Below, piece after piece: positions 5,340 to 55,121 of a stretch of 64,000 bases of DNA. Made by a program: the position numbers and the translations under genes. Position 1 is the stretch's first letter; each line of letters opens with the position of its first letter. Under the pieces are notes generated by a model. It saw nothing but the letters and a program-made list of their open reading frames with translations, did no database searches and had not been told where the DNA came from. Source of the DNA: a virus (taxonomy: Duplodnaviria > Heunggongvirae > Uroviricota > Caudoviricetes); the IMG/VR virus record IMGVR_UViG_3300029828_000006, positions 27,904 through 91,903 of that record; one strand, written 5' to 3'.

Positions 5340-5403
5340 GAATCACCGCAAATTGTTTCCAGTTTTGCGGCAGCATAATCAGTATGTGATTTCAGCGGTT
5401 GGT

Positions 5404-6801: not shown

Positions 6802-6883
6802 CTATAGAGAAAGCTGTGAGTGTAAAAAGTGTGTGATTTATGTGAGAACAGATAAGTGAAAGGGGCATTTCAGCCCCTTTTGA

Positions 6884-7252: not shown

Positions 7253-9222
7253 TAAGCACCTCCCTGCTGAATTTCAGCCAGAATGTTGATCAGGTAGTCA
7301 ACTGCTGCACCAACAGTGGCTTCGTTCTCGTCGTATCGACCTGCACTGATTAGAGCGTTTGCTGCTTCCTGCACATGATCAAGTTCAGCACTAATGACCG
7401 TCAGATCGCGGGATGTAAACTGCTCCGGCACGGATTTCAGGTACTCCAGTGCTTTATCTGCCTCCTGATCAGCTTCATTTGCTGATTCACCCGTTTCTTC
7501 TGGCTCCTGTTCTGGTGCTGGTTGTGGTTGTGGTTGTGGTTGTGATTCTGGCTCAACCATATGCTCTGTTTTTACTTCGCTTGAATGATTTTGAAGGGCG
7601 TTATACACGTCCATAATGAAAAGGTTCTCCCCATCACTAAGTGGATACGCCACGTTTGGAAACGCTTTGCGGAAAAGAATTTTCACTTGCGCCTTGAATG
7701 TTTTCAGGTCACTGCCAAACAGGTCCACATAGCCATCAATATGTTTCGACATGCTGGACGCAACCAATTGGTCTGCAAAATCTTTCAGCTCATCTTCATC
7801 AGGAAGATAGAGCAACTCGTACTGGCTGACTTCTTCATCTGTCAGTTTACGGTCATACGTAATGATACCGTGACGAGCATATTCGTAATACTGATCAGCC
7901 TGGTCAGGACGATCAAGCACGGCTTTATTTCCATCCGGAACAGCACCAACACCAGCCGGGCGAGATTGAAGTGCATAGTGGTATTTACCTACATCTTGGC
8001 TCTCTGGTTGTAATACTGGGTTCGTTTCGGGGTCTGTCTGTGGTGGTTCGGAGTCTTCCAGCTGGCCTGGTAACACATCAACTTTATATTTATCTGCGTT
8101 ATGCTCTCGGTAGGCTTTAAGTAATTTGGTTGCAGCATCTGCCAAACTGCCTCCTTTGACAGCACTGGCATCAATACTGAATTTACCTTCAGGTGCTACT
8201 ATCGTAACGAAATTATCACTGCCGGACGTGACATAATTAACTTCAGCTCCATTATCCAGCACTGTTTTTCCGTCAATGGCAAGATTATGTTTTACATGTC
8301 GCAGCTGGTCACTAAACGCTCGTTCTTTCGTTTTTTCACCTTTAGCAGACAACAATTTATCGCGTTTTGCTTGTAATTCCTCGTTGATGGCTTTCTGGGC
8401 ATCAAGTTTTTTTTGCATCTCCGTAAGAGCAGCACGCTTTTCAGTCAGCCCACGTTGCGCAACTTCCACCTGATCAATCATTATTGACCGTTCTTCTGCC
8501 AGTTTATCTGCTTCATTGAGATAACTCTCAATATCTGCCTTCATTTTGTCCTGGCGCTCTTTTGCTTTCTTAAATTTTTCGCTGTTACGCTCAATCAAAT
8601 TAGATAGCGCCTGGCATACCTGGCTTAAAGAAACATCTCTCCCACCAATCGGGGCGACAACGTGAGTTACGTTACGTTTATTAAGTAAAAACTGAAATGC
8701 AACAAGCTCGTCGTTACTCTTTATTTTTGCCCCGTCAGCTGTTGGAGAGTGGAAAATTATGCTTGTACTCTGCCCGTCAGTAAGCGGTATCTGCGCGGTC
8801 AAAACAGGGATATTAGCTACCCGACGTACACGACCGATAATCGCACCACCAATACAATTACGTCCATTTTCATCGGTCCCAGCTTCATCAGTCCCTGCCA
8901 TAATATTCGTACCATTCAGGCCACGATTCAGCGCACGGACGAAAGCTCGCATTGTTTGAGCTAACCGAATTCTGGTTGTAGTTATGGACTCAAACATAGC
9001 TTCGTCAGACACAACCAGAATTTCATTGCCCATATAGGCAAGCTCAATATCTTCTAAGGTCGCCGCCTCAAAAATCAGGTCATCTTCGCTTAATTCTTCT
9101 GAAGACCAGCGACTTGGCATATAGCCGGGGATCGTATCAGCAAAAGTAGACTGAATATTAATTCGTAAAGGATTGTTAATCATGCTCATCCTCCAGGCGC
9201 GCGATTTCTTCTTTAAGAGCAC
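7252..9222 (-). CDS. large acidic phage protein (DarA-position candidate)
   Basis: 656 aa, central coiled-coil, acidic PQ-repeat linker (QPQPQPQP encoded by (GTTGTG)4 at 7520-7544); operon context after holin-like genes as in the P1 darA operon (from memory). Confidence 0.3.
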   Translation of the reverse strand: MLLKKKSRAWRMSMINNPLRINIQSTFADTIPGYMPSRWSSEELSEDDLIFEAATLEDIELAYMGNEILVVSDEAMFESITTTRIRLAQTMRAFVRALNRGLNGTNIMAGTDEAGTDENGRNCIGGAIIGRVRRVANIPVLTAQIPLTDGQSTSIIFHSPTADGAKIKSNDELVAFQFLLNKRNVTHVVAPIGGRDVSLSQVCQALSNLIERNSEKFKKAKERQDKMKADIESYLNEADKLAEERSIMIDQVEVAQRGLTEKRAALTEMQKKLDAQKAINEELQAKRDKLLSAKGEKTKERAFSDQLRHVKHNLAIDGKTVLDNGAEVNYVTSGSDNFVTIVAPEGKFSIDASAVKGGSLADAATKLLKAYREHNADKYKVDVLPGQLEDSEPPQTDPETNPVLQPESQDVGKYHYALQSRPAGVGAVPDGNKAVLDRPDQADQYYEYARHGIITYDRKLTDEEVSQYELLYLPDEDELKDFADQLVASSMSKHIDGYVDLFGSDLKTFKAQVKILFRKAFPNVAYPLSDGENLFIMDVYNALQNHSSEVKTEHMVEPESQPQPQPQPAPEQEPEETGESANEADQEADKALEYLKSVPEQFTSRDLTVISAELDHVQEAANALISAGRYDENEATVGAAVDYLINILAEIQQGGA

Positions 9223-10558: not shown

Positions 10559-10634
10559 ACCCCTCCAGAAATAACATCTAATGCGCCACTAACTTAGTCA
10601 GTTTGTTATTTCCTTACAGGACATCTTCTAAAAT

Positions 10635-17418: not shown

Positions 17419-17512
17419 ACGAACATAGCCCCTTCATAAGCAATGAACCAAAGGAGAGTATGCTCAGTTTGTGATTTCCGTTGTTCTTCCCCCAAATGCG
17501 GGGGAAGAATTA

Positions 17513-24794: not shown

Positions 24795-24869
24795 TTATTC
24801 CTCCGAAAAGCAGGTATCTGTTCATTTTCCAGAGGATAGGGAGTGTGTGATTTGCGATGGGGATTGAAT

Positions 24870-33416: not shown

Positions 33417-33549
33417 GGTTAAGCCCTAAATTCGGGCGCGGCGTGAAGGTTCTTTTGACGGGCTAACAATACCTACTTTGTGATTTAGTCAATAGGTTTA
33501 GTAAAATAAAATATATTAACACGCATGTTGTTATGTGATTTAATTTTAG

Positions 33550-39267: not shown

Positions 39268-40929
39268 ATGAGTGAGGCAGAAGCCCGCCCGACTAACTTT
39301 ATTCGTCAGATCATCGATGAAGATCTGGCCAGTGGTAAGCACACCACAGTACATACCCGTTTCCCGCCGGAACCGAATGGCTATCTGCATATTGGTCATG
39401 CGAAATCTATCTGCCTGAACTTCGGGATCGCCCAGGACTATAAAGGCCAGTGCAACCTGCGTTTCGACGACACTAACCCGGTAAAAGAAGATATCGAGTA
39501 TGTTGAGTCGATCAAAAACGACGTTGAGTGGTTAGGTTTTCACTGGTCTGGTAACGTCCGTTACTCCTCCGATTATTTTGATCAGCTCCACGCCTATGCG
39601 ATCGAACTGATAAATAAAGGCCTGGCGTATGTTGATGAACTGACACCGGAACAGATCCGCGAATACCGCGGCACCCTGACGCAGCCGGGTAAAAACAGCC
39701 CGTACCGCGACCGCAGCGTTGAAGAGAACCTGGCGCTGTTCGAAAAAATGCGTACCGGTGGTTTTGAAGAAGGTAAAGCCTGCCTGCGTGCGAAAATCGA
39801 CATGGCGTCGCCATTTATCGTAATGCGCGATCCGGTGCTGTACCGCATTAAATTTGCTGAACACCACCAGACTGGCAACAAGTGGTGCATCTACCCGATG
39901 TACGACTTCACCCATTGCATCAGCGATGCGCTGGAAGGTATTACGCACTCTCTGTGTACGCTTGAGTTCCAGGACAACCGCCGCCTGTACGACTGGGTGC
40001 TGGACAACATCACCATTCCTGTTCACCCGCGCCAGTACGAATTCTCGCGCCTGAATCTGGAATACACCGTGATGTCCAAGCGTAAGCTGAACCTGCTGGT
40101 GACCGACAAGCACGTTGAAGGCTGGGATGACCCGCGTATGCCGACCATTTCCGGTCTGCGTCGTCGTGGTTACACTGCGGCTTCTATTCGTGAGTTCTGC
40201 AAACGCATCGGCGTGACCAAGCAGGACAACACCATTGAAATGGCGTCGCTGGAATCCTGCATCCGTGAAGATCTCAACGAAAATGCCCCGCGCGCAATGG
40301 CGGTTATCGATCCGGTGAAACTGGTTATCGAAAACTACCAGGGCGAAGGCGAAATGGTCACCATGCCGAACCATCCGAACAAACCGGAAATGGGTAGCCG
40401 TCAGGTGCCGTTTAGCGGTGAGATTTGGATCGACCGCGCCGATTTCCGCGAAGAAGCTAACAAGCAGTACAAACGTCTGGTGCTGGGTAAAGAAGTGCGT
40501 CTGCGTAATGCTTACGTCATTAAGGCTGAACGCGTGGAGAAAGATGCCGAAGGCAATATCACCACCATCTTCTGTACTTATGACGCCGACACCTTAAGCA
40601 AAGATCCGGCAGATGGTCGTAAAGTGAAAGGCGTTATTCACTGGGTGAGCGCGGCACATGCGCTGCCGGTTGAAATCCGCCTGTACGATCGTCTGTTCAG
40701 CGTGCCGAACCCAGGTGCTGCGGATGATTTCCTGTCGGTGATTAACCCGGAATCGCTGGTGATCAAACAGGGTTTTGCTGAACCGTCGCTGAAAGAAGCG
40801 GTAGCGGGTAAAGCATTCCAGTTTGAGCGTGAAGGTTATTTCTGCCTCGACAGCCGCCATTCTACGGCGGAAAAACCGGTATTTAACCGCACCGTTGGGC
40901 TGCGTGATACCTGGGCGAAGTTAGGTTAA
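39268..40929 (+). CDS. glnS: glutaminyl-tRNA synthetase
   Basis: 553 aa with class I HIGH ([13 protein letters not shown]) and VMSKR (KMSKS-type) motifs; matches E. coli GlnRS recalled from memory almost throughout. Confidence 0.95.
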
Positions 40930-46706: not shown

Positions 46707-46856
46707 AGGTCGATCTGTCAGGTATCGAAAGGAAGATTTTCTGGAGATTGTGATTTTGGATGAAGGAGGGGGAATTCATAAAATGCACTTGCGCACAGTG
46801 CAACGGTGCGCTATAGTTATGGCATTCGGTAATCATCACGGAGGATCAAATGACTA

Positions 46857-47159
46857 ATGACCAAAAAAATTAACATAAAGGATTTCAGGGATGCGTGGCT
46901 TGATGATTTTTTTGAATTTTCAACACCACATAGAAAGATACCTCCTGATATTCATATGACATTGTCACGGAAGTTGGACATTATCAATGCCGCAACTACC
47001 TGTAAGGATTTAAGATCACCACCAGGTAATCGGTATGAGGAACTGTCAGGGAAGCTAAATGGCTATTCATCAGTAAGGGTGAATAAGCAATATAGGTTAA
47101 TTTTTAAGTGGGTTAACGGAAAGGCCGAGGACTTGTATCTCGACCCTCACAAATACTAA
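46857..47159 (+). CDS. higB: HigB toxin (RelE/ParE superfamily)
   Basis: 100 aa, C-terminal RVNKQYRLIFKWVNGKAEDLYLDPHKY matches HigB pattern. Confidence 0.8.
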   Translation: MTKKINIKDFRDAWLDDFFEFSTPHRKIPPDIHMTLSRKLDIINAATTCKDLRSPPGNRYEELSGKLNGYSSVRVNKQYRLIFKWVNGKAEDLYLDPHKY

Positions 47160-47229
47160 AACAGATACCCGGTTACGGACCGGGTTCTGACCAGAGTCCA
47201 CTTAATACGCACGCTAGTAAGGGCAAAAA

Positions 47230-47568
47230 ATGAAACAGGCAACCAGAAAACCGACGACCGTAGGTGATATCCTGCTGTACGAATACCTGGAGCCGTTAGA
47301 GCTGAAGATCAACGAGTTAGCAGAAATACTTCATGTTCATCGTAACACCGTAAGTGCTCTTGTTAATAACAATCGTAAGCTAACGATGGATATGGCATAT
47401 CGCCTGGCAAAAGCATTCGATACTTCTGTAGATTTTTGGATTAATCTTCAGACCGCAGTAGATCTGTGGGAAGTCGAAAATGATATGCGCGTTCAGGAAG
47501 AGTTAAGTCGTATCAATACTGCTGAAAAATTTATTTCTCAGCGGAACCTGAATAAAAAAGCAGCCTGA
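47230..47568 (+). CDS. higA: HigA antitoxin (XRE-type HTH)
   Basis: 112 aa, LAEILHVHRNTVSALVNNNRKLT HTH, FWINLQ motif. Confidence 0.8.
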   Translation: MKQATRKPTTVGDILLYEYLEPLELKINELAEILHVHRNTVSALVNNNRKLTMDMAYRLAKAFDTSVDFWINLQTAVDLWEVENDMRVQEELSRINTAEKFISQRNLNKKAA

Positions 47569-47586
47569 TATAGTAAAACACATACA

Positions 47587-47618
47587 AAAAGCCCACTTAG
47601 CAAGTGGGCTTTCCTTTG
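47587..47618. terminator. terminator after higA
   Basis: aaaagcccacttagcaagtgggctttcctttg. Confidence 0.55.
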
Positions 47619-47624
47619 TAATTA

Positions 47625-47825
47625 ATGAACATTAAACCTATCCGTACAGAACAAGATTATGAGGCCGCACTGCGTGCGGTCGAACCGATGTTCGATAACG
47701 AACCGGAAATGAATACTCCGGAAGGTGATTTCTTTGAGGTTATGAGTCTTCTCATTGAGGAGTACGAGAAGAAACATTACCCAATTCAACCACCATCACC
47801 TGTTGAATCTTTTAACTATCCATAA
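47625..47825 (+). pseudogene. truncated two-domain HigA-like antitoxin (N-terminal domain only; HTH domain missing)
   Basis: 66 aa PIRTEQDYEAAL...EGDFFEVMSLLIEEYEKKHYPI then stop where the HTH domain normally follows; abrupt drop to AT-rich DNA begins here. Confidence 0.5.
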
Positions 47826-47846
47826 TAAAAGTAATCAGGATAAGCT

Positions 47847-48575
47847 ATGATGTCAGAAAAAGTTAAAGATAATCCGTCTATAAATGAAACAGAACTAAAA
47901 TCATTTTCTGAAATAATAAAAGATAAAATATTTAACAAGGTTTTTGCATATGTTGTCATTTCTTTTCTAATTTTTAACTGGAAGGATATTTTAATTATAT
48001 TAAAGTCAAAGGACGACATCCTATATACATTATCTATTGTTTCTGTTGGTGGTAATGTCCCGTTCATTGATAATTGGATTGTATCCCCGTGGGTTTATCA
48101 CGTTGTAATCCCATTTATTTATGGAGTATTTGCATCTGTGTTAGCTCCTGTTCTCACACTGAAGATATCTAAGCTAACAAGTAAATTATACACTGAAATA
48201 AGATATTTAGATGAAGTTGCTGATTATGATAAAAGAATAGAATTGCAAAGAAAGAAAACAAAGTTAAATCAAGCAACCAATGACGCTAAATATTCAAAAC
48301 AAATCTTAGATGAAAATGAAAATAAACTTAATGACTTGGTTGCGAAACAGCGAGAAATTTGTGGCGCGATAAAACTATTGCATACTGATGTTGGCAGTAT
48401 TATTGAACTATATAAAAATAAGGGGGTTAGCATTGAATCTCCGCAAGATTTATGTGATTTTATAGTCGCTATAAAAAGCACATCATTCTATAATGATGAC
48501 AAGCATTTTAATAAATTGGTGTCTGATATTTCCAGTTTGTTTGATAATACTGGAATTGATCTTTCAAAAAAATGA
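47847..48575 (+). CDS. low-GC 2-TM membrane protein with cytoplasmic coiled-coil domain (accessory gene; exclusion/defence candidate)
   Basis: 242 aa; TM helices ~33-50 and ~80-105; markedly AT-rich codon usage unlike neighbours. Confidence 0.5.
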   Translation: MMSEKVKDNPSINETELKSFSEIIKDKIFNKVFAYVVISFLIFNWKDILIILKSKDDILYTLSIVSVGGNVPFIDNWIVSPWVYHVVIPFIYGVFASVLAPVLTLKISKLTSKLYTEIRYLDEVADYDKRIELQRKKTKLNQATNDAKYSKQILDENENKLNDLVAKQREICGAIKLLHTDVGSIIELYKNKGVSIESPQDLCDFIVAIKSTSFYNDDKHFNKLVSDISSLFDNTGIDLSKK

Positions 48576-49802: not shown

Positions 49803-50124
49803 TTTCTATCTCCGGTTCCGCGCTTGCGTAATCACGGATCTTGTTCCTCAGCCATGCCACATCAGGAAGAGTTAACGTGGTCCCTGCGGGCATTTCTTCC
49901 ATTTCTGACTCATGGCCCACCAGCACCCGGAATACCCAGCGCAAATCTGCATTGCCATACGCCCTGTAGGCTGCAAGGTCTGAACGATATACTTCATCAA
50001 TCTTTATCGTGTACTGGAAATTATCAGAGTGATACTCCGATACCCGCTTAATCATTTCCTGGTGAAACAGCGCACGAAAAATATCGTCTTCAATGTACCT
50101 ATCGTCGAGTCTGCTATAGCCCAT
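49795..50124 (-). CDS. hypothetical protein
   Basis: 109 aa, overlaps downstream gene by 8 bp. Confidence 0.3.
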   Translation of the reverse strand: MGYSRLDDRYIEDDIFRALFHQEMIKRVSEYHSDNFQYTIKIDEVYRSDLAAYRAYGNADLRWVFRVLVGHESEMEEMPAGTTLTLPDVAWLRNKIRDYASAEPEIENA

Positions 50125-50452
50125 AACAAAGCCTCTCAGTCATAACCTGGGGGAAACTGTATGCAGGGTGTGAAATGCGAGAAACAGACAGGCCACCAGT
50201 TCAGGGGGATGTGGTTCATAAATCCCCTCACTGGTGACAAGTGACTTTCATTAATCTTTATGCGGGGGCCAGCTTCATTTGCTGGCATTAGATTAAAAAT
50301 CAAACGGAGTAAATGACATGGATGTTATCTTCGAATTATTAATGCTAATTGATCTGTTTATGAACGCTTCATTGACCACTCAAATACTCGCGTCAATATT
50401 TTTGTTACTCTTCTACCTGGTATTGAGGGAGTTAACAAAGCTACTAATGTGA

Positions 50453-51106
50453 TCAAAGTATCACGGTATCTTCATCAACTTCTTTCCCAGTCAGCGACTT
50501 TGGCTGGGAGGTGCCTGCTTTAACTTTTTCATGCCCAATAATGGACAGGAACGAAGCGAGTATGCCTGTTTTTTGCTCTTTCTCGACTGTACCGGTCATC
50601 TGCTCTACGTAATCCGCACTGGCAACATTGTGGTATACGGTCGCGTAGCAACACAGGATCATCAAAATATGTTCCGGCCTGATATCCTGCCAGTTCACCC
50701 GGTAAACTTCTTCTCCGTTACCGTTGTATTCGGTGTCAACGATGGAGTCGGGAATTTCGAAAGCACCTTTATTGTTTTGCGGCAGGGATAATAGCTTCTG
50801 GAGTTTTAGCTCTCTGTATCTTTCCATCCCTACGATGATCGCAGCTCTGCCGTCGGCATGACGTGTCTTGAGTGTTACCTGGCTTGCTCCGGTGCCAGCG
50901 GAGATCGTTGGCGTAATTTCGTCTACCAGCACCTTAAATTTGCTTTTCCGCAGGGCTGCTATAGCTGGAGGAATCTTTTGCTTTTGTTCCAATGCTGACG
51001 CGGGAAGGGGTTTTACTTCGTTAATCACGAGAGCACCGTCTTTCAGTATTGCAGTGAGCATTTGCGGTTTGCTGGTGGTCAGGCTGAATATTGCTATCTT
51101 CTCCAT
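50453..51106 (-). CDS. hypothetical protein
   Basis: Likely start MEKIAIF at 51106 with strong SD GGAGGAAGGA; track ORF extends to 51148. Confidence 0.35.
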   Translation of the reverse strand: MEKIAIFSLTTSKPQMLTAILKDGALVINEVKPLPASALEQKQKIPPAIAALRKSKFKVLVDEITPTISAGTGASQVTLKTRHADGRAAIIVGMERYRELKLQKLLSLPQNNKGAFEIPDSIVDTEYNGNGEEVYRVNWQDIRPEHILMILCCYATVYHNVASADYVEQMTGTVEKEQKTGILASFLSIIGHEKVKAGTSQPKSLTGKEVDEDTVIL

Positions 51107-51133
51107 TGTCCTTCCTCCACGGATGACGGATAC

Positions 51134-51165
51134 AAAAAAAGGCCGCACATGGCGGCCTGCTTTGG
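51134..51165. terminator. rho-independent terminator (minus direction)
   Basis: Reverse complement gives ggccgccatgtgcggcc followed by TTTTTTT. Confidence 0.5.
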
Positions 51166-51452
51166 CGTTATGACTCCCTACCGCGCTTCGGCTGAAAGTT
51201 AATCGTCAAAAGAACCTTCAACGGGAGCCGTTAGCGCGATGGATTATGTGCAGTTTGTGATTTCCAGAATAGTGTCAACCACTTTTTGAGGATTTTATTA
51301 TTTGACCGAAACTTGGCCTAAATCATGTTGATGTAGTTGATTGTTTTTATAACATAAAACCTCATTTTGTTTACATGAAGGACGGGGTAGTGAAGTTAAG
51401 GGTTTTAGGGACCGCGCTCGCGGCTAAGATGGTAAAGTATGGAGTTAATGAA

Positions 51453-52286
51453 ATGTTTTTTATAAAAAATGGAAAAAGATGTTCCTCAACAATACTTGCT
51501 ACTGTTGTTGCTCTCTCTGTTCCCACATTTGCCTTTGCTTATGATTTTAGCAAAATTGACTGTAATGCCCCTAAAACCAGACAGATGTTAATCGATGATT
51601 ATAATGAACTGCTGAAGGACGATCAGGAAGCAATCTCTGTAATTGATGCTTATAATCAGATCAATGAGATAAGAGAAAAAAATAAGCTCCAATGTCTGGG
51701 AACGTATGAATTCTCTGATGGAAGTGCGCTTAGGGTTAGATATAAGTTATATTTAAATAGCCTCGGCACACCCATATATGAATTTGCTCCAGTTGAGGAA
51801 TTAACGCAGGATGATGTAAGCGCATCTATTCATAATTCCCCTGCAACTCCTGCAAGCATGGCTGGACATGATAAAAAAAATAATGGTGAAACGTATGCCT
51901 GTAAGGTGGCTGTAACTTACAAGGGGGAGCGTTCTAACTATATGGGGGATTCCGGAACATGGGATCGTGTGATTACTGACTATGGCACTTATTTTTCATG
52001 GGATTTGCCACGCGGAAACCGAGGCAACAGCACAGGTCAGGATGCTTTTAGTGGCATGGACGAATCAAAGCCTGTATTAGAAAATCAGCTAGTGAGAAAG
52101 GAAACTGAAAAAGATGGTAGCGTGGTTGATGAATTTAGGACTGATGTAAGTTATGGGGAAAAACAACCAGTTCATAAGTTTGTATATGCTCGTAGAATAA
52201 AACCTACAGGCATGAGAGAGTATTATGTTACGGATTTAACAGACAAGCGGGCGTTTATGTTTCTGAATTGTCAGAGAGATTCGTGA
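51453..52286 (+). CDS. secreted protein (signal peptide), low GC
   Basis: ATG 51453 with SD GGAG; MFFIKNGKRCSSTILATVVALSVPTFAFA signal peptide; track ORF starts 51375. Confidence 0.45.
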   Translation: MFFIKNGKRCSSTILATVVALSVPTFAFAYDFSKIDCNAPKTRQMLIDDYNELLKDDQEAISVIDAYNQINEIREKNKLQCLGTYEFSDGSALRVRYKLYLNSLGTPIYEFAPVEELTQDDVSASIHNSPATPASMAGHDKKNNGETYACKVAVTYKGERSNYMGDSGTWDRVITDYGTYFSWDLPRGNRGNSTGQDAFSGMDESKPVLENQLVRKETEKDGSVVDEFRTDVSYGEKQPVHKFVYARRIKPTGMREYYVTDLTDKRAFMFLNCQRDS

Positions 52287-52293
52287 TTGACAT

Positions 52294-52321
52294 AGCAGGC
52301 TTACTATTAAGCCTGCTTTTT
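52294..52321. terminator. bidirectional terminator
   Basis: agcaggcttactattaagcctgcttttt. Confidence 0.6.
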
Positions 52322-52325
52322 GGCT

Positions 52326-52685
52326 TTACTCGGTAATAGTTTTGCAGTTGTTTTGATTTAATGACAATCCTAGCTTGCTAGCAGCCAACTCATTTTCTGT
52401 GTGAGAACCAGCAAAAATGAAGCCTTGTTTTATCTTATTTACGGTGAAATATTTATTATACATGAACGCCCAGATAAATGAGGCAATCCACGGGCCAATT
52501 CCGGCTGTGAGGAATGCCAGTATCAGCATCACTACAAATACCCCAATAAAAGTTATAAAGTCTTTCCTGAACAAAGCTGGAAAAGCACCAAACAAGAATG
52601 TAGTCCAGGAAAAACCATAAAAACCGGTGATTGATTCGCCAGTTTGAGGGTTTTCAAGTTTAATTTTAGTAGCCACGATTATCAT
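52326..52685 (-). CDS. small inner-membrane protein (2 TM)
   Basis: 119 aa, hydrophobic segments FSWTTFLFGAFPALF and IGVFVVMLILAFLTAGIGPWIASFIWAF. Confidence 0.4.
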   Translation of the reverse strand: MIIVATKIKLENPQTGESITGFYGFSWTTFLFGAFPALFRKDFITFIGVFVVMLILAFLTAGIGPWIASFIWAFMYNKYFTVNKIKQGFIFAGSHTENELAASKLGLSLNQNNCKTITE

Positions 52686-52821
52686 CCTTTTACATAAAAA
52701 ACATATAGTTATAGTGCTGTGTGAGATTCTAATGTTACTAATTTACACTTTGTAATGCAATTAAATAACTTTAGGCAGTGGAAGTAACTATTCGTGGCAG
52801 ACTATCGTTAAGACCTTTCAA

Positions 52822-53106
52822 TTATGGTTGCTGTAAATGGAGGGGAACAGCCTGTTCTATCATCCCGCGTATCAAGCCAACTTCAAGTAGTTCCTCGTAT
52901 TCCCAGTATCTGTTTGTTACCAGATCCAGGCTGGCTATGACCTTGTGCCGGTCATTCGGCATAGCCAATTTTTCTGCTATAACCATCAGTGAAAACTCTT
53001 CATCCAGTAGAATTTGATAGCAGTTTTTTGATAGTTCCACTTCCCTTATGAGACTGAAACGTCGCTGGATTGTGGCAGCAGAGTAAGTGAAATCTATTTT
53101 CTTCAT
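52822..53106 (-). CDS. hypothetical protein
   Basis: 94 aa. Confidence 0.3.
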   Translation of the reverse strand: MKKIDFTYSAATIQRRFSLIREVELSKNCYQILLDEEFSLMVIAEKLAMPNDRHKVIASLDLVTNRYWEYEELLEVGLIRGMIEQAVPLHLQQP

Positions 53107-53165
53107 CGTGCGGAGAATCCGGTTATTTAGTAGTTAAAGCCCCGGACAGGCCGGGGCAACAGTAA

Positions 53166-53462
53166 TTAACTAACAATCCAGTCCGTAGCAACAACATCCT
53201 CTGGAGCTAAATCAATCGCATGGATTTTCCCATCCCGGATAGTGCGCCAGTGCTTTCGTGATCCACCTTCGGGCCACACCCATACACCTTCAGGCCAGGA
53301 TACTCGACGGCATACGATTGCATAGCCTGTTTTAATCCTCTCTCTGGCGGTATGCAACGACAGGTTTGCCTTTGGACTTTCAGGCACAGGATGGTGGATT
53401 GCCTGAAACATCCCCATCTTTGGATGATACCAGCGTTTATTGCGTGGTTCTGCCTCCGACAT
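53166..53462 (-). CDS. antirepressor-locus C-terminal-module protein (separate gene)
   Basis: ATG at 53462 preceded by AGGUG SD 7 nt after Rha stop; MSEAEPRNKRWYHPKMG... homologous to the tail of 137..844 and to the partial ORF at 1..139. Confidence 0.45.
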   Translation of the reverse strand: MSEAEPRNKRWYHPKMGMFQAIHHPVPESPKANLSLHTARERIKTGYAIVCRRVSWPEGVWVWPEGGSRKHWRTIRDGKIHAIDLAPEDVVATDWIVS

Positions 53463-53469
53463 CACCTGC

Positions 53470-54108
53470 TTAAAGGCTTTCCGGAAGGGGGGCCATGGCC
53501 ACAATGGAGCGTCGCGCAAGCAAACCATCGGGAGTTAAAAACTCATGCGTATCGGTGGGAATCCGGAAAGCGTTAACCAGGTTGCGGCATTTGGCTTCAG
53601 TCAGGCCACATTTCGCCGCCAGCTGGCGGTAGCCAATGTAGCCTTCCGGAATATTGCCTTTCTTTATTTGCTCGAGTGTTTCAGCGACCATCGATACTTG
53701 TGCTGATACCTCGGCTACCTGGGCATTTACGGCGTTGATCCGGCGTTCATGCTCAAGATGCATTTGCGCCATTTCAGCCAGAATTTCGGCTTTTGATTTT
53801 AACTGTACCCGGGCATTCTCCAGTTCGCGCCAGCGGTCCACCAGCCGGGCGGTGAATTCGGGAGAGAGCTGCGCGACGACGACAATACTATCGCGCTTGC
53901 CTTGCTCGCCTTCGAAGAAATAGGCTTTTGTGTATTTATTAGGGCTAAGTGATTGATTATTCTCAACTGTAGCCAATGGCGTATGTTGGATAACTCCTTT
54001 AGCAACAAGTCTTTCGATGCTGCGTTTAACATCAGAGTGACGACTTCCCACCAGTTCCGCGATCTCAATGCTGGTCATTGTCGCTTTTTGAGAGATGGAC
54101 AGATTCAT
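53470..54108 (-). CDS. Rha-family phage regulatory protein / antirepressor (second copy)
   Basis: 212 aa, MTSIEIAELVGSR motif; ~90% DNA identity with copy at 137..844 over the conserved core. Confidence 0.7.
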   Translation of the reverse strand: MNLSISQKATMTSIEIAELVGSRHSDVKRSIERLVAKGVIQHTPLATVENNQSLSPNKYTKAYFFEGEQGKRDSIVVVAQLSPEFTARLVDRWRELENARVQLKSKAEILAEMAQMHLEHERRINAVNAQVAEVSAQVSMVAETLEQIKKGNIPEGYIGYRQLAAKCGLTEAKCRNLVNAFRIPTDTHEFLTPDGLLARRSIVAMAPLPESL

Positions 54109-54323: not shown

Positions 54324-54389
54324 ATTGGCAGCCTCCTTTGACTAAGTTAAGGAGCTACCGCGTGAGGTTCCAATCTCAATGGCGGTAGC

Positions 54390-54480
54390 ACTGACTGGGT
54401 TGGAACTACCGGCGTCAAAGGGAACCGGCCTGCCTTTCGGCAGCCCAGCCAGCACTACCATTGATCTCTGAGCTAAACGC
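54390..54480 (-). ncRNA. candidate c4-type antisense RNA element in second icd/ant leader
   Basis: + strand 54414-54422 gtcaaaggg is reverse complement of RBS-region cctttgac at 54335-54342. Confidence 0.25.
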
Positions 54481-55121
54481 TAAGTATGGCTGTGCGATGG
54501 CATGACACAAAAAAAGACGCGTTCGGCGTCTGTGTCGCCTTTGACATTATCCGGGGTTCCAATCCCGGCACCCGTTTTTCTAAGGTGCCGTAGAAATATA
54601 CCCCACGATAATGCCAGGGCGCAACAGTCAGTATTTTATGCTTTGGCGGATTTCTTCCGGGCTTGCTTGCAGGCGTAGGCCATTGCTTTAGCTTTCACTT
54701 CATCCAGCTTCCCGGTGATCACTTCTTTTCCGAGAGTGACAAACCAGTCATAGCAACCGCCAGTAATGTTCTTGATTTGAAAGTTGAGGTAGCGAACAGT
54801 CATTTTGACACCCCCAGCGCGAGTAAAGAATGCAGATTATCGCGTGAGTGGTGGACGACGAGTGATGGGAAAAGACTGTAGTTGTTCATAGTGTAGTGAC
54901 TCCTTGCTTTCGGAGCCGCCATCGACTGTTCCACGGTCTGGTGGCGGCGCAATAAAGGCTGGAACACCGTGAGTCAACGGGGGCTTTTCAGCCACCTATA
55001 TTGCACCGCCATAGGTATGGCGGCGGCAATAATACGAAAAACTAAACAGTTTGTCTCAAAAAGTTGACCGGTGTGCCAATCGGTAGTGAATGTACATCGG
55101 TGAAATTCACAATTCAACTTA

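What the first reader, a model, noticed from the sequence alone, without database searches (positions are those of the whole stretch)
50318..52685. Accessory patch: candidate small hydrophobic peptide, secreted low-GC protein, small membrane protein
Between the SWIM module and the second immI-like module lie (i) an unannotated 44-aa hydrophobic ORF (50318-50452 +, MDVIFELLMLIDLFMN...), (ii) a 217-aa gene with a strong RBS placed directly behind a terminator, (iii) a low-GC secreted protein with a clean signal peptide, and (iv) a 2-TM membrane protein. This is moron-like cargo that could alter the host surface or exclude other phages.
Basis: seen in the sequence. Interest (0 to 1): 0.4.

Follow-up and report, generated by a model that had tools for sequence, protein, structure and literature searches.

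The report
Sim-like cassette beside phage core genes
In a D6-type (P1-like) phage-plasmid, this stretch joins two conserved phage genes (a real 44-residue membrane peptide and the Mat maturation gene) to a swappable low-GC cassette that makes one periplasmic and one membrane protein, probably to keep other phages out; most of it is ordinary, though how these genes are controlled is new.

Summary
The window is a D6-like P1-family phage-plasmid (97% to phage D6, 100% to E. coli plasmids). The interval is not one accessory patch.

Core part:
- The 44-aa ORF is D6 orf77. It is intact in 45 of 47 loci, variable sites fall 6/5/21 by codon position, and pN/pS is 0.08-0.27, so it is a real gene. An invariant P1-type late-promoter box precedes it.
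- The 217-aa gene is a homologue of P1 Mat (33% identity, E 7e-41). It sits behind a late-promoter motif specific to the D6 lineage and an ultraconserved ~105-nt leader that ends in the terminator.

Accessory part:
- Only 51433-52880 (GC 0.38) is accessory. Other D6-like plasmids carry different secreted-protein cassettes at this position.
- It encodes a periplasmic protein: signal peptide, SimB-like domain (46% identity to P1 SimB), then a beta-barrel domain with no recognisable function.
- It also encodes a small membrane protein from a chromosomal proteobacterial family.

Exclusion of superinfecting phage at the cell envelope is the best-supported function, but it is inferred. The gene content was already annotated or noted in the literature. 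New here are proof that the peptide is coding, the cassette anatomy, the lineage's late-promoter motif, and a 17-nt complementarity between the mat leader and the capsid mRNA leader.

The parts
50237..50258 (+). Invariant 22-mer ACAAGTGACTTTCATTAATCTT. It reads as a P1-type late promoter: -22 box AAGTGACTT at 50239-50247, a 4-nt spacer, and a -10 TAATCT at 50252-50257.
   Evidence: Identical in all five aligned lineages, including the 75%-diverged pB2C type, whose flanks carry indels. The box matches P1 LPmat exactly (AAGTGACTT cagt CAGAAT) and resembles P1 LPpac (ATGTGACTT tcgt TACCCT). It is the only exact copy in the window. Dependence on Lpa is inferred.
50269..50285 (+). Hairpin CCAGC-N7-GCTGG in the 5' leader of the small gene.
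   Evidence: Retained, and lengthened by changes on both arms, in pB2C (CCAGCTC-GATAGT-GAGCTGG).
50318..50452 (+). orf77: a 44-aa single-pass hydrophobic peptide gene (MDVIFELLMLIDLFMNASLTTQILASIFLLLFYLVLRELTKLLM).
   Evidence: Intact in 45 of 47 loci. Variable sites fall 6/5/21 by codon position, p=1.9e-4, and pN/pS is 0.08-0.54. Matches PHROG 38362. 37 protein clusters, all from roughly 90-kb plasmid-like contigs. tblastn finds it only in 101 Escherichia, Salmonella and Shigella plasmids.
50453..51106 (-). mat: homologue of the P1 maturation-control protein Mat (217 aa).
   Evidence: BLASTP against P1 Mat gives 33% identity over 208 aa, E 7e-41. The D6 annotation calls it 'similar to P1 gene mat'. 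PHROG 1837.
51130..51240 (-). Ultraconserved mat leader RNA ending in an intrinsic terminator (stem 51158-51140, T-run to 51133). It contains CGUUGAAGGUUCUUUUGACG at 51223-51204.
   Evidence: 0 variable columns at 51150-51239 among 20 sequences, against 2-13 (mostly 6-10) per 30 nt inside mat. Near-invariant in lineages 82% diverged. Terminator found by the scan. Compensatory stem change in E. hormaechei. No Rfam family matches.
51243..51263 (-). D6-lineage late-promoter motif AAATCACAAACT-gca-CATAAT in front of mat.
   Evidence: The pattern AAATCACAnACT-N4-A-N3-T has 8 matches in the window, all on the minus strand, against 0.10 expected. Four lie directly upstream of mat, the sit operon, the capsid gene and the R/tail-fibre genes, one upstream of gene 7, and three inside annotated genes; a ninth site precedes the D6 lysozyme gene.
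51375..51432 (+). Conserved left flank of the cassette slot. It holds the shared 5' end of the cassette's first gene (MKDGVVKLRVLGTALAA...), in frame with the secreted protein.
   Evidence: The same N-terminus starts the unrelated secreted proteins of the alternative cassettes in L008 and L010. Homology with those loci ends at 51427-51433.
51433..52880 (.). Swappable low-GC cassette (type A, 1.45 kb).
   Evidence: Boundaries. GC 0.383. Cassette types counted. PMC6799933 also notes divergence around simB.
51453..52286 (+). Periplasmic two-domain protein (277 aa): signal peptide 51453-51539, SimB-like domain 51540-51800, variable linker, beta-barrel C-domain 51888-52283.
   Evidence: 46% identity to full-length P1 SimB, E 1e-27. 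No similarity to SimC. The two domains occur separately and in other fusions. The C-domain AlphaFold model has pLDDT 91. Fold matches are generic small barrels and uncharacterised phage proteins.
52294..52317 (+). Intrinsic terminator after the secreted-protein gene.
   Evidence: 10-bp stem followed by TTTTTGG.
52326..52685 (-). Small inner-membrane protein with 2-3 membrane spans; the likely start is GTG 52676 (116 aa).
   Evidence: 183 homologues, many in proteobacterial chromosomes. It is a single gene among housekeeping genes in Cedecea. No Pfam family matches; DUF2628 scores only 12 bits in a homologue against a cut-off of 23. In D6-like loci it always accompanies the C-domain protein.
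52822..53106 (-). pmgF homologue. Its 3' end lies inside the cassette; the rest forms the conserved right flank, leading to the second immI module.
   Evidence: D6 annotation. Homology resumes at about 52881. C4 RNA lies at 54378-54465.
33441..33460 (-). Outside the finding: the 5' leader of the capsid-gene mRNA, complementary to the mat leader.
   Evidence: A 17-nt perfect complement; the next best anywhere in the window is 11 nt, and the maximum in 200 shuffles is 15. It sits 6 nt after the -10 of a D6-type late promoter. All 4 substitutions seen in other lineages keep pairing as G.U.

Best explanation
The interval is a junction in a D6-type P1-family phage-plasmid. On one side lies conserved phage core; on the other lies a swappable envelope cassette that corresponds functionally to the P1 sim locus.

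Core part (shown). orf77 encodes a 44-aa single-pass membrane peptide under purifying selection. It is read from a promoter with the architecture of a P1 late promoter. Convergent with it is mat, the homologue of P1's maturation-control gene.

How mat is expressed (inferred). mat is transcribed from a late promoter specific to the D6 lineage, through an invariant leader of about 105 nt that ends in an intrinsic terminator 27 nt before the start codon. Most transcripts should therefore stop as a short RNA, and mat is made only on read-through. Genes 26 and 25 have no late promoter of their own, so they probably depend on the same read-through.

Cassette part. The anatomy is shown; the function is inferred. 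Positions 51433-52880 form one of at least three alternative cassettes. These are exchanged by recombination between a conserved left flank, which supplies the promoter and the first codons of a signal peptide, and pmgF on the right. This version exports a two-domain protein to the periplasm: a SimB-like domain and a disulfide-closed beta-barrel. It also places a small protein in the inner membrane.

Most likely function. The two proteins act at the envelope of the lysogen and interfere with a superinfecting phage after adsorption, while its genome is being delivered. This is what P1 Sim does. T4 Spackle plus Imm, and P22 SieA, do the same kind of thing by other means. The interchangeable N-terminal domain and the alternative cassettes would set which phages are blocked.
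For: Identity of the element.

orf77 is coding:
- It is intact in 45 of 47 loci carrying the upstream box, giving 13 peptide variants.
- Variable sites fall 6/5/21 by codon position, p=1.9e-4, and pN/pS is 0.08-0.27.
- The frame and length hold even in the 75%-diverged pB2C type, whose non-coding flanks carry indels.

Its promoter: an invariant 22-mer containing an exact copy of the P1 LPmat box, followed by N4 and TAATCT.

mat:
- Homologous to P1 Mat at E 7e-41.
- The D6-type late-promoter motif occurs 8 times against 0.10 expected, and one copy lies before mat.
- Terminator. The leader has no variable column in 90 nt.
- The leader, the terminator (with a compensatory change) and the mat-26-25 gene order are kept in an Enterobacter plasmid.

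Cassette:
- Boundaries and GC of 0.383.
- Alternative cassettes encode other secreted proteins that share the same N-terminus.
- Among 36 informative loci: 13 carry the SimB-like/C-domain fusion (11 type A, 2 with an extra protein A), 3 carry an alternative N-domain fused to the C-domain, and 20 carry type B. The membrane-protein gene accompanies the C-domain protein in all 14 loci where that flank is held, and is never found with type B.

Link to Sim: 46% identity to full-length P1 SimB, including the signal peptide and both cysteines. P1 SimA, SimB and SimC all begin with signal-peptide-like sequences. P1 sim lies next to immI, and so does this slot. PMC6799933 independently calls the gene a simB homologue and notes that it is replaced in a sister plasmid.
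Against: - The function was never tested. SimB is only a 'putative accessory' in P1; the protein assigned the superimmunity function in the P1 record is SimC, which has no homologue here.
- No PADLOC model, Pfam family or solved structure matches any of the four proteins.
- The C-domain fold is a generic small barrel.
- SimB-like proteins and the membrane-protein family also occur as isolated chromosomal genes with no phage context. They could serve the host.
- No promoter for the cassette could be defined, so expression in the lysogen is assumed.
- The co-occurrence of the membrane protein and the C-domain protein could reflect shared descent rather than shared function.
- The orf77 promoter is P1-type, whereas all eight other late-promoter-like sites in the window are D6-type. 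D6 Lpa is only 31% identical to P1 Lpa. When orf77 is expressed is therefore uncertain.
Confidence: 0.55

Rival explanations
1. The cassette is a lysogenic-conversion or host-fitness module with no role in phage exclusion. The periplasmic SimB-like/barrel protein would bind or inhibit a host or competitor envelope factor, for example a muramidase, a colicin or a small ligand. The membrane protein would be a borrowed housekeeping stress protein.
Against: The only characterised relatives belong to the P1 superimmunity locus. The slot sits next to an immunity module, and its contents turn over between close relatives, which is typical of genes involved in conflict between phages. The fold hits are weak and generic.
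Confidence: 0.25
2. The terminated mat leader is itself a trans-acting late RNA. The transcript of about 105 nt that ends at the terminator pairs with the extreme 5' end of the capsid-gene mRNA and tunes its stability or translation. On this view the 'terminator in front of the 217-aa gene' is the 3' end of a small-RNA gene as well as an attenuator of mat.
For: The leader's only long complement in 64 kb is a 17-nt perfect match at the predicted 5' end of the capsid mRNA. The next best is 11 nt, and 200 shuffles reach at most 15. Both sites lie just downstream of D6-type late promoters. Across two further lineages, all 4 substitutions within the duplex keep pairing as G.U. The leader is more conserved than the mat coding sequence. 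The capsid-side segment is unpaired in the predicted fold.
Against: No true double compensatory change was seen. Four of four wobble-preserving transitions gives only p of about 0.06. The folding z-score of the leader is unremarkable at -1.5. The leader-side segment is partly buried in a predicted hairpin. A DNA site for a protein, used in both orientations, would also explain an inverted repeat. There are no expression data.
Confidence: 0.3
3. orf77 is a trap aimed at P1-type phages. Its promoter keeps the P1 Lpa box rather than the D6 one, so the late activator of a superinfecting P1 or P7 switches on a membrane-damaging peptide, and the infection aborts.
For: The box matches P1 LPmat 9 of 9 and has P1 spacing, whereas the eight other late-promoter-like sites in the window use a different motif. 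D6 has a single Lpa, 31% identical to P1 Lpa. The promoter is invariant. The product is a small hydrophobic peptide, like type I toxins. An Enterobacter relative lacks the whole orf77 unit, so it is dispensable for the phage.
Against: The site is where P1 has its shared LP26/LPpmgL box, so it may simply be an inherited late promoter that D6 Lpa still uses. The D6 motif shares the half-site AA(A/G)TCAC with the reverse complement of the P1 box. A second P1-type-like site lies next to a D6-type-like site in D6 at about 9040-9069. Toxicity is untested.
Confidence: 0.08
4. The 44-aa ORF is not translated. The conserved sequence would act as a non-coding or antisense RNA against the mat-26 read-through transcript.
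For: It is convergent with mat with no gap, and it lies inside the likely mat-26-25 late transcript. PGAP does not call it.
Against: Third-position bias of 21 of 32 variable sites, pN/pS well below 1, exact length kept in 45 of 47 loci and in a 75%-diverged variant, and a conserved start codon with a Shine-Dalgarno sequence in most lineages.
Confidence: 0.05

Closest known systems
Phage P1 sim (superimmunity) locus: simA, simB, simC
   Same: A SimB-homologous domain (46% identity, with the signal peptide and both cysteines). All products are predicted to be exported. Both lie beside an immI (c4-icd-ant) module. P1 simA, simB and simC are non-essential for plaque formation.
   Different: There is no simA or simC. 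The SimB-like domain is fused to a 130-aa beta-barrel domain absent from P1. The locus is not divergent from c4: it lies beyond pmgF, paired with a membrane-protein gene, and the whole unit is an exchangeable cassette.
Phage D6 orf77-orf80 (NC_050154) and D6-like plasmids such as pYU39_89
   Same: 97% identical DNA with the same gene order. D6 already annotates orf77, mat, a simB-like gene and orf80. PMC6799933 names the simB homologue and notes that it is replaced in pSL26_91.
   Different: This copy differs only in detail, for example a frameshifted ant nearby. The present analysis adds evidence that orf77 is coding, the domain structure of the secreted protein, the cassette limits and the regulatory motifs. 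None of these appears in the annotation or in the papers I could read. The D6 genome paper (Gilcrease and Casjens 2018) was not available to me.
P1 Mat and its promoter region (Omat, Pmat, LPmat)
   Same: A homologous protein, and a late promoter directly upstream.
   Different: The late-promoter motif is AAATCACAnACT-N3-(-10) rather than AAGTGACTT-N4-(-10). There is no P1-type C1 operator anywhere in the window. A terminator-bearing leader lies between promoter and gene, which P1 lacks. Here mat precedes genes 26 and 25 rather than lying beside ref and res.
Envelope-level superinfection exclusion: T4 Spackle with Imm, and P22 SieA
   Same: A periplasmic protein and/or a small inner-membrane protein made by the resident phage blocks genome delivery by an incoming phage (abstracts of PMC7677548 and PMC10883804, listed; T4 Imm is from my own knowledge).
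   Different: There is no sequence or fold relationship. The resemblance is only in the kind of mechanism, and it is inferred.
Lambda PR'-tR' with the 6S RNA and Q antitermination (from my own knowledge)
   Same: A late promoter followed within about 100 nt by an intrinsic terminator that must be read through before the downstream late genes are made.
   Different: No Q homologue or Q-binding element was identified. Only mat shows this layout here, plus gene 26 in the Enterobacter relative. The short RNA here also has a candidate target in trans.
Type I toxin peptides such as Hok, TisB and Ldr (from my own knowledge)
   Same: A hydrophobic single-pass peptide of about 44 aa, with a structured 5' leader and an overlapping antisense transcript.
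   Different: No homology. The promoter looks like a phage late promoter. No dedicated antitoxin RNA was identified, and toxicity is untested.

Membership tests
P1 SimB family | Sequence homology over the whole SimB length, including the signal peptide and the two cysteines | tested here: met
   BLASTP gives 46% identity over residues 2-111 of the 111-aa SimB, E 1e-27. A profile search finds stand-alone SimB-like proteins of 100-120 aa.
P1 SimB family | Single-domain protein of about 111 aa, encoded together with simA and simC and divergent from c4 | tested here: not met
   The protein is 277 aa with an extra C-terminal domain. There is no SimC or SimA similarity in any D6-like locus. pmgF and a membrane-protein gene separate it from immI.
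P1 SimB family | Contribution to superimmunity | not testable with these tools
   Needs plating and DNA-entry assays. Even for P1 SimB the role is annotated as putative.
P1 Mat (maturation control) | Sequence homology to P1 Mat | tested here: met
   33% identity, 56% positives over 208 aa, E 7e-41.
P1 Mat (maturation control) | Late promoter immediately upstream | tested here: met
   A D6-type motif lies at 51263-51243. The motif has 8 sites against 0.10 expected. That these are late promoters is inferred from their positions before the sit, capsid, tail and lysozyme genes.
P1 Mat (maturation control) | P1-type C1 operator (Omat) at the promoter | tested here: not met
   There is no match to ATTGCTCTAATAAATTT with up to 3 mismatches anywhere in the window.
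P1-type late promoter (Lpa-dependent) | 9-bp inverted-repeat box at about -22, 4 nt upstream of a -10 hexamer | tested here: met
   AAGTGACTT-tcat-TAATCT at 50239-50257. Compare LPmat, LPsit, LP26 and LPpac in the P1 record. It is invariant across lineages.
P1-type late promoter (Lpa-dependent) | Activation by Lpa | not testable with these tools
   D6 Lpa is 31% identical to P1 Lpa. The other late-promoter-like sites in the window use a different motif.
Pfam DUF2628 (the name some sources give to homologues of the membrane protein) | Score at or above the Pfam gathering threshold | tested here: not met
   The window protein gives no hit at E up to 10. The best homologue scores 12.4 bits against a cut-off of 23.
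Known anti-phage defence systems (PADLOC) | Match to any defence-protein model | tested here: not met
   No hit at E up to 0.1 for any of the four proteins or for the alternative cassette proteins.
Type I toxin-antitoxin | Small hydrophobic membrane peptide | tested here: met
   44 aa. The maximum mean Kyte-Doolittle value over 15 residues is 2.5, and the hydrophobic segment spans residues 17-40.
Type I toxin-antitoxin | Dedicated antisense RNA antitoxin, and toxicity on overexpression | not testable with these tools
   Only the convergent mat transcript overlaps it. No Rfam family matches.
Rho-independent terminator | G+C-rich hairpin followed by a U-run, with the hairpin kept by compensatory change | tested here: met
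   AGGCCGC-CATGT-GCGGCCT plus T7. In E. hormaechei the stem is AGCCGC...GCGGCT, a G-C to A-U change.

The most novel reading that the evidence does not exclude
Late gene control in D6-type phage-plasmids uses elements not described for P1.

- A lineage-specific late-promoter motif: AAATCACAnACT, then 3 nt, then the -10 hexamer.
- At mat, an invariant leader ending in a terminator. The terminated RNA of about 105 nt would pair with the 5' end of the capsid mRNA. A small RNA would then link the maturation-control locus to capsid synthesis.
- Beside it, an orphan P1-type late promoter drives a 44-aa membrane peptide. This would let the prophage respond to the late activator of a different phage.
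Probability: 0.2. Interest if true: 0.65.

Novelty: new variant of a known kind. Interest (0 to 1): 0.4.

Why it matters
D6-like phage-plasmids are common in E. coli, Salmonella and Shigella: 100 of 5426 complete E. coli genomes match this stretch. They also share hosts with P1-like elements that carry resistance genes.

If the cassette excludes phages, the alternative versions at this position would be a simple marker of which phages a lysogen resists. The fusion of a SimB-like domain to a barrel domain would also give the poorly understood P1 Sim system a second, dissectable member.

The small gene is a clear example of a conserved micro-protein that automatic annotation misses.

The late-promoter motif and the mat leader make P1-family late regulation testable with a few reporter fusions and Northern blots. 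Antitermination in this family has long been suspected but never shown (PMC10695390).

Tried and rejected
- Pfam, NCBIfam and PADLOC gave nothing for any of the four proteins. PHROGs gave only families of unknown function.
- Sequence search of the PDB gave nothing for Mat or for the secreted-protein profile.
- The full-length AlphaFold model of the secreted protein was poor (pLDDT 58). Its Foldseek hits against the PDB were not significant. One local match of the SimB-like domain to an 84-aa designed helix-plus-sheet protein was too weak to use.
- Rfam found no family in 50000-53200.
- I looked for P1-type late promoters upstream of the other late operons and found none. A k-mer count then revealed the D6-type motif.
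- I first read AAGTGGTTG-acac-TATTCT as a P1-like LPmat and rejected it, because that box is not conserved.
- No convincing sigma-70 promoter could be defined for the cassette gene or for mat (and inspection).
- RNA duplexfold between the two leaders was uninformative, because it allows very large loops. I replaced it with a longest-perfect-complement statistic.
- The P1 genome paper (Lobocka 2004) and the D6 genome paper (Gilcrease and Casjens 2018) are not held in the library. Statements about them rest on the GenBank annotations and on papers that cite them.


Full report
WHAT THE ELEMENT IS

The 2.7 kb around the finding is 97.3% identical to Escherichia phage D6. It is 100% identical to several E. 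coli plasmids of about 90 kb. All 103 matching places in complete E. coli genomes lie on plasmids. The window is therefore a D6-type member of the P1 family of phage-plasmids.

The D6 annotation gives this gene order: tail gene 25, baseplate gene 26, orf76, orf77, mat, a 'simB-like' gene, orf80, pmgF, ant, icd. PGAP calls the same genes hypothetical and leaves out orf77. Rfam finds a C4 antisense RNA at 54378-54465 and an isrK-like RNA at 54510-54588. It finds another C4 at 1116-1201 with a c4 a1/b1 target element at 1269-1321. The plasmid therefore has two immI modules.

THE 44-aa ORF IS A REAL GENE

I retrieved 47 places that carry the sequence just upstream of the ORF, from related phage and plasmid records and from viral and metagenome collections.

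- The ORF is intact and exactly 44 codons long in 45 of them. Of the other two, one is cut by the end of its contig and one is rearranged.
- There are 23 distinct DNA versions and 13 distinct peptides.
- Within the main group, variable sites fall 6, 5 and 21 at codon positions 1, 2 and 3. The binomial p for 21 or more of 32 at the third position is 1.9e-4.
- pN/pS against the window copy is 0.08-0.27.
- In the pB2C-type plasmids the first 27 codons are only about 60% identical at the DNA level. The neighbouring non-coding DNA carries indels of 7 and 3 nt. The ORF still keeps its start, frame, length and hydrophobic pattern, with pN/pS of 0.5.

The peptide has a short N-terminal helix-like segment and one strongly hydrophobic stretch at about residues 17-40, ending in RELTKLLM. 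Homologues exist only in D6-like plasmids of Escherichia, Salmonella and Shigella. A more distant Enterobacter hormaechei relative lacks the whole unit, and there mat is followed by gene 26 after 59 nt.

THE PROMOTER OF THE SMALL GENE

About 60-80 nt upstream of the start codon lies a 22-mer, ACAAGTGACTTTCATTAATCTT (50237-50258). It is identical in every lineage, including the one whose flanks are 75% identical.

It has the architecture that the P1 record annotates for late promoters: a 9-bp box at -22, then 4 nt, then a -10 hexamer.

- This site: AAGTGACTT tcat TAATCT.
- P1 LPmat: AAGTGACTT cagt CAGAAT.
- P1 LPpac: ATGTGACTT tcgt TACCCT.
- P1 LPsit and LP26: AAATGACTA N4 TAGAAT.

In P1 the same position, upstream of gene 26, holds a shared box that serves LP26 and the divergent LPpmgL. 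The P1 gene there, pmgL, is unrelated to orf77. A hairpin in the 5' leader (50269-50285) is kept through changes on both arms.

Activation by Lpa is an inference, and an uncertain one, for the reason given in the next section.

A LATE-PROMOTER MOTIF SPECIFIC TO THE D6 LINEAGE

I found no further P1-type late promoter upstream of the late operons. A k-mer count over upstream regions then gave AAATCAC(A).

The pattern AAATCACAnACT-N4-A-N3-T has 8 matches in the window, all on the minus strand like the late operons. Shuffled sequence gives 0.10.

- Four sites lie directly upstream of mat (51263), the sit/tail operon (24853), the capsid gene (33486) and the R/tail-fibre genes (17477). P1 has LPmat and LPsit at the first two of these positions. 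A late promoter before the capsid gene is what one expects. For the tail-fibre genes the correspondence to P1's late promoter Ps is from my own knowledge.
- One lies upstream of gene 7 (46756).
- Three lie inside annotated genes (5392, 6839, 10611).
- One more precedes the D6 lysozyme gene, outside the window.

I conclude that this is the D6-type late promoter. This is inferred from position. D6 has one Lpa homologue, only 31% identical to P1 Lpa.

The promoter of orf77 is therefore the odd one out. Either D6 Lpa still accepts the ancestral box, or the site answers to a P1-type activator. The two motifs share the half-site AA(A/G)TCAC when the P1 box is read on the opposite strand. The window also has no P1-type C1 operator, which fits a repressor with a different operator sequence.

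THE 217-aa GENE AND THE TERMINATOR IN FRONT OF IT

The protein is a homologue of P1 Mat: 33% identity over 208 residues, E 7e-41. Mat is listed as essential in the older literature, although a CRISPRi knock-down missed it.

It lies on the mat strand, and its U-run ends 27 nt before the ATG, so there is no room for a promoter between them. Upstream of it is the D6-type late promoter (51263-51243).

The stretch from the predicted start near 51236 to the terminator is the most conserved DNA in the region.

- It has 0 variable columns in 51150-51239 among 20 sequences, against 2-13 (mostly 6-10) per 30 nt inside mat.
- It is almost unchanged in lineages whose mat genes are about 82% identical.
- It is present in the Enterobacter plasmid with a compensatory G-C to A-U change in the terminator stem.
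- In that plasmid gene 26 also has its own D6-type motif followed by a terminator-like hairpin.

My reading, which is inferred: late transcripts mostly end as an RNA of about 105 nt, and mat needs read-through. In this lineage genes 26 and 25 have no late-promoter motif of their own, so they probably need the same read-through. In kind this resembles lambda PR'-tR'. PMC10695390 notes that antitermination in P1 is suspected but not shown.

AN UNEXPECTED COMPLEMENTARITY

The leader contains CGUUGAAGGUUCUUUUGACG. Its reverse complement, 17 nt exact, lies at 33460-33444 on the same transcribed strand. That is 6 nt after the -10 of the D6-type promoter of the capsid gene, at the predicted 5' end of the capsid mRNA. 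Many D6-like plasmids annotate this gene as 'capsid protein'.

- It is the longest perfect complement of the leader anywhere in the 64 kb.
- The next best are 11 nt.
- 200 shuffles of the leader never exceed 15 nt.
- Four substitutions fall within the duplex in two other lineages: three C-to-U opposite G, and one A-to-G opposite U. All four keep pairing as G.U.

This is suggestive (about p=0.06) but is not proof of covariation. A protein-binding site used in both orientations remains possible.

THE CASSETTE

Compared with three diverged D6-like plasmids, homology ends at 51427-51433 and resumes at about 52881, inside the 3' end of pmgF. The 1454 bp between these points has a GC of 0.383, against 0.48 for mat and 0.466 for the whole window.

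In the other plasmids the slot holds different genes, and these also encode proteins with signal peptides. Those proteins begin with the same residues (MKDG.VKLRVLG...) as the in-frame N-terminal extension of the ORF here. The conserved left flank therefore supplies the expression signals and the start of a signal peptide, and recombination swaps what follows.

In this cassette the incoming gene brought its own ribosome-binding site and a complete signal peptide (ATG 51453). The mature protein is the same whichever start is used.

Among the 36 loci with informative content:

- 11 have this type A cassette;
- 2 have type A plus an extra 'protein A';
- 3 have a different helical N-terminal domain fused to the same C-domain;
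- 20 have type B, two other secreted proteins.

The membrane-protein gene accompanies the C-domain protein in all 14 loci where that flank is held, and is never found with type B. In complete E. coli genomes, 37 of the 100 matching plasmids cover at least 80% of the query. PMC6799933 had already noted that the simB region is replaced in one Salmonella D6-like plasmid.

THE SECRETED PROTEIN

Residues 8-116 match the whole of P1 SimB: 46% identity, E 1e-27, including the signal peptide and both cysteines. The remainder has no similarity to SimC.

The family is small. There are 11 clusters among 5.8 billion proteins. An exhaustive profile search of 1.84 billion representatives gives 31 hits. These split into three groups:

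- stand-alone SimB-like proteins of 100-120 aa;
- stand-alone C-domain proteins of 145-170 aa, with signal peptides;
- C-domains fused to other N-terminal regions.

The protein is thus modular: signal peptide, SimB-like domain, variable linker, then C-domain. The C-domain has an invariant YFSWDLPRGNRGNSTGQD-type motif and one cysteine near each end.

- outer-membrane barrels;

The viral structure library gives only uncharacterised phage proteins. I read no function from this. In the weaker full-length model the SimB-like domain is one helix packed on a four-stranded sheet.

One stand-alone SimB-like gene lies in an ordinary chromosomal neighbourhood. One stand-alone C-domain gene lies among many small unknown genes, in a context that looks like a phage or plasmid.

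THE MEMBRANE PROTEIN

It has 183 homologues down to about 40% identity in enterobacteria, Burkholderiales and alpha-proteobacteria. In Cedecea it is a lone gene between Usp, SDR and LysR genes. It belongs to no Pfam family, and the DUF2628 label given by some sources is not supported. It looks like a gene captured from a host chromosome.

FUNCTION

Nothing here measures function. The best-supported reading is exclusion of superinfecting phage at the cell envelope. The reasons are these:

- The only studied relatives belong to the P1 superimmunity locus.
- All products of the slot are exported or inserted in the membrane.
- The slot adjoins an immunity module.
- Its content turns over between close relatives.

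Points against:

- The protein assigned the superimmunity function in the P1 record is SimC. From my own knowledge, Maillou and Dreiseikelmann 1990 purified a processed, exported Sim protein. SimC is absent here.
- No defence model matches.
- Both protein families also occur in chromosomes.

For orf77 I commit only to this: it is a small inner-membrane protein, probably made late. Roles in lysis timing or membrane perturbation are guesses.

VERDICT

The gene content was already annotated in D6 and noted in one population study.

New here are:

- proof that the small ORF is coding;
- the cassette limits and its modular proteins;
- the D6-type late-promoter motif;
- the conserved terminator-bearing mat leader and its complement in the capsid leader;
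- the orphan P1-type promoter.

These are of moderate interest and easy to test.

Noticed in passing
window 5372-5392, 6819-6839, 10591-10611, 17457-17477, 24833-24853, 33466-33486, 46736-46756, 51243-51263 (all minus strand): A motif AAATCACAnACT, then 3 nt, then a -10-like hexamer. It occurs 8 times against 0.10 expected. Four sites lie directly before mat, the sit operon, the capsid gene and the R/tail-fibre genes, one before gene 7, and three inside annotated genes. It looks like the late promoter of the D6 lineage and differs from the P1 late-promoter box.
   Followed up: partly
window 33441-33460 (-) and 51204-51223 (-): A 17-nt perfect complementarity between the ultraconserved mat leader RNA and the predicted 5' end of the capsid mRNA. 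All four substitutions seen in other lineages keep pairing as G.U. It could be an RNA-RNA interaction in trans.
   Followed up: partly
window 53166-54108 (-): The ant (Rha-family antirepressor) gene of the second immI module is split into ORFs of 212 and 120 aa. D6 has one gene of 313 aa, and PGAP marks the gene here as a pseudogene. The second immunity module may be partly inactive in this plasmid.
   Followed up: no
window 46857-48575: A second low-GC island (0.36 overall, 0.29 for its last gene) lies between tail genes 25 and 7. It holds a HigB/HigA-type toxin-antitoxin pair, a truncated helix-turn-helix gene and a 242-aa protein of unknown function. Other D6-like plasmids carry different genes there (L008, L066), so it is another variable slot. 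Gene 7 has its own D6-type late-promoter motif just downstream of it.
   Followed up: no
L009 2812-3383 (pB2C_96): In this plasmid type a second higBA pair is inserted between gene 26 and the orf77 promoter. The first half of orf77 comes from a much more diverged lineage, yet it remains in frame.
   Followed up: partly
L066 12146-14340 (Enterobacter hormaechei p60214CZ_1): This distant relative has no orf77. Gene 26 follows mat after 59 nt that hold a D6-type promoter motif and a terminator-like hairpin. The slot upstream of mat holds a single 277-aa secreted protein that is a fusion of the two type B cassette proteins.
   Followed up: partly
L054 (phage D6) 9020-9069 (-): A D6-type-like motif (AAATCACAATTC gaa TGTATT) is followed 8 nt later by a P1-type-like late promoter (AGGTAACTT aaca TAGAAT). 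Both read into about 1.2 kb of D6 with no annotated gene (7851-9084). This lies outside the window.
   Followed up: no
window 39268-40929 (+): The plasmid carries a full-length glutamine-tRNA ligase gene (glnS, as annotated by PGAP on the identical plasmid), which is unusual cargo for a phage-plasmid.
   Followed up: no
window 54510-54588 (-): An isrK-like Hfq-binding small RNA (Rfam, 61 bits, threshold 50) lies just upstream of the C4 RNA in the second immI module only. The first module has a c4 a1/b1 target element instead.
   Followed up: no
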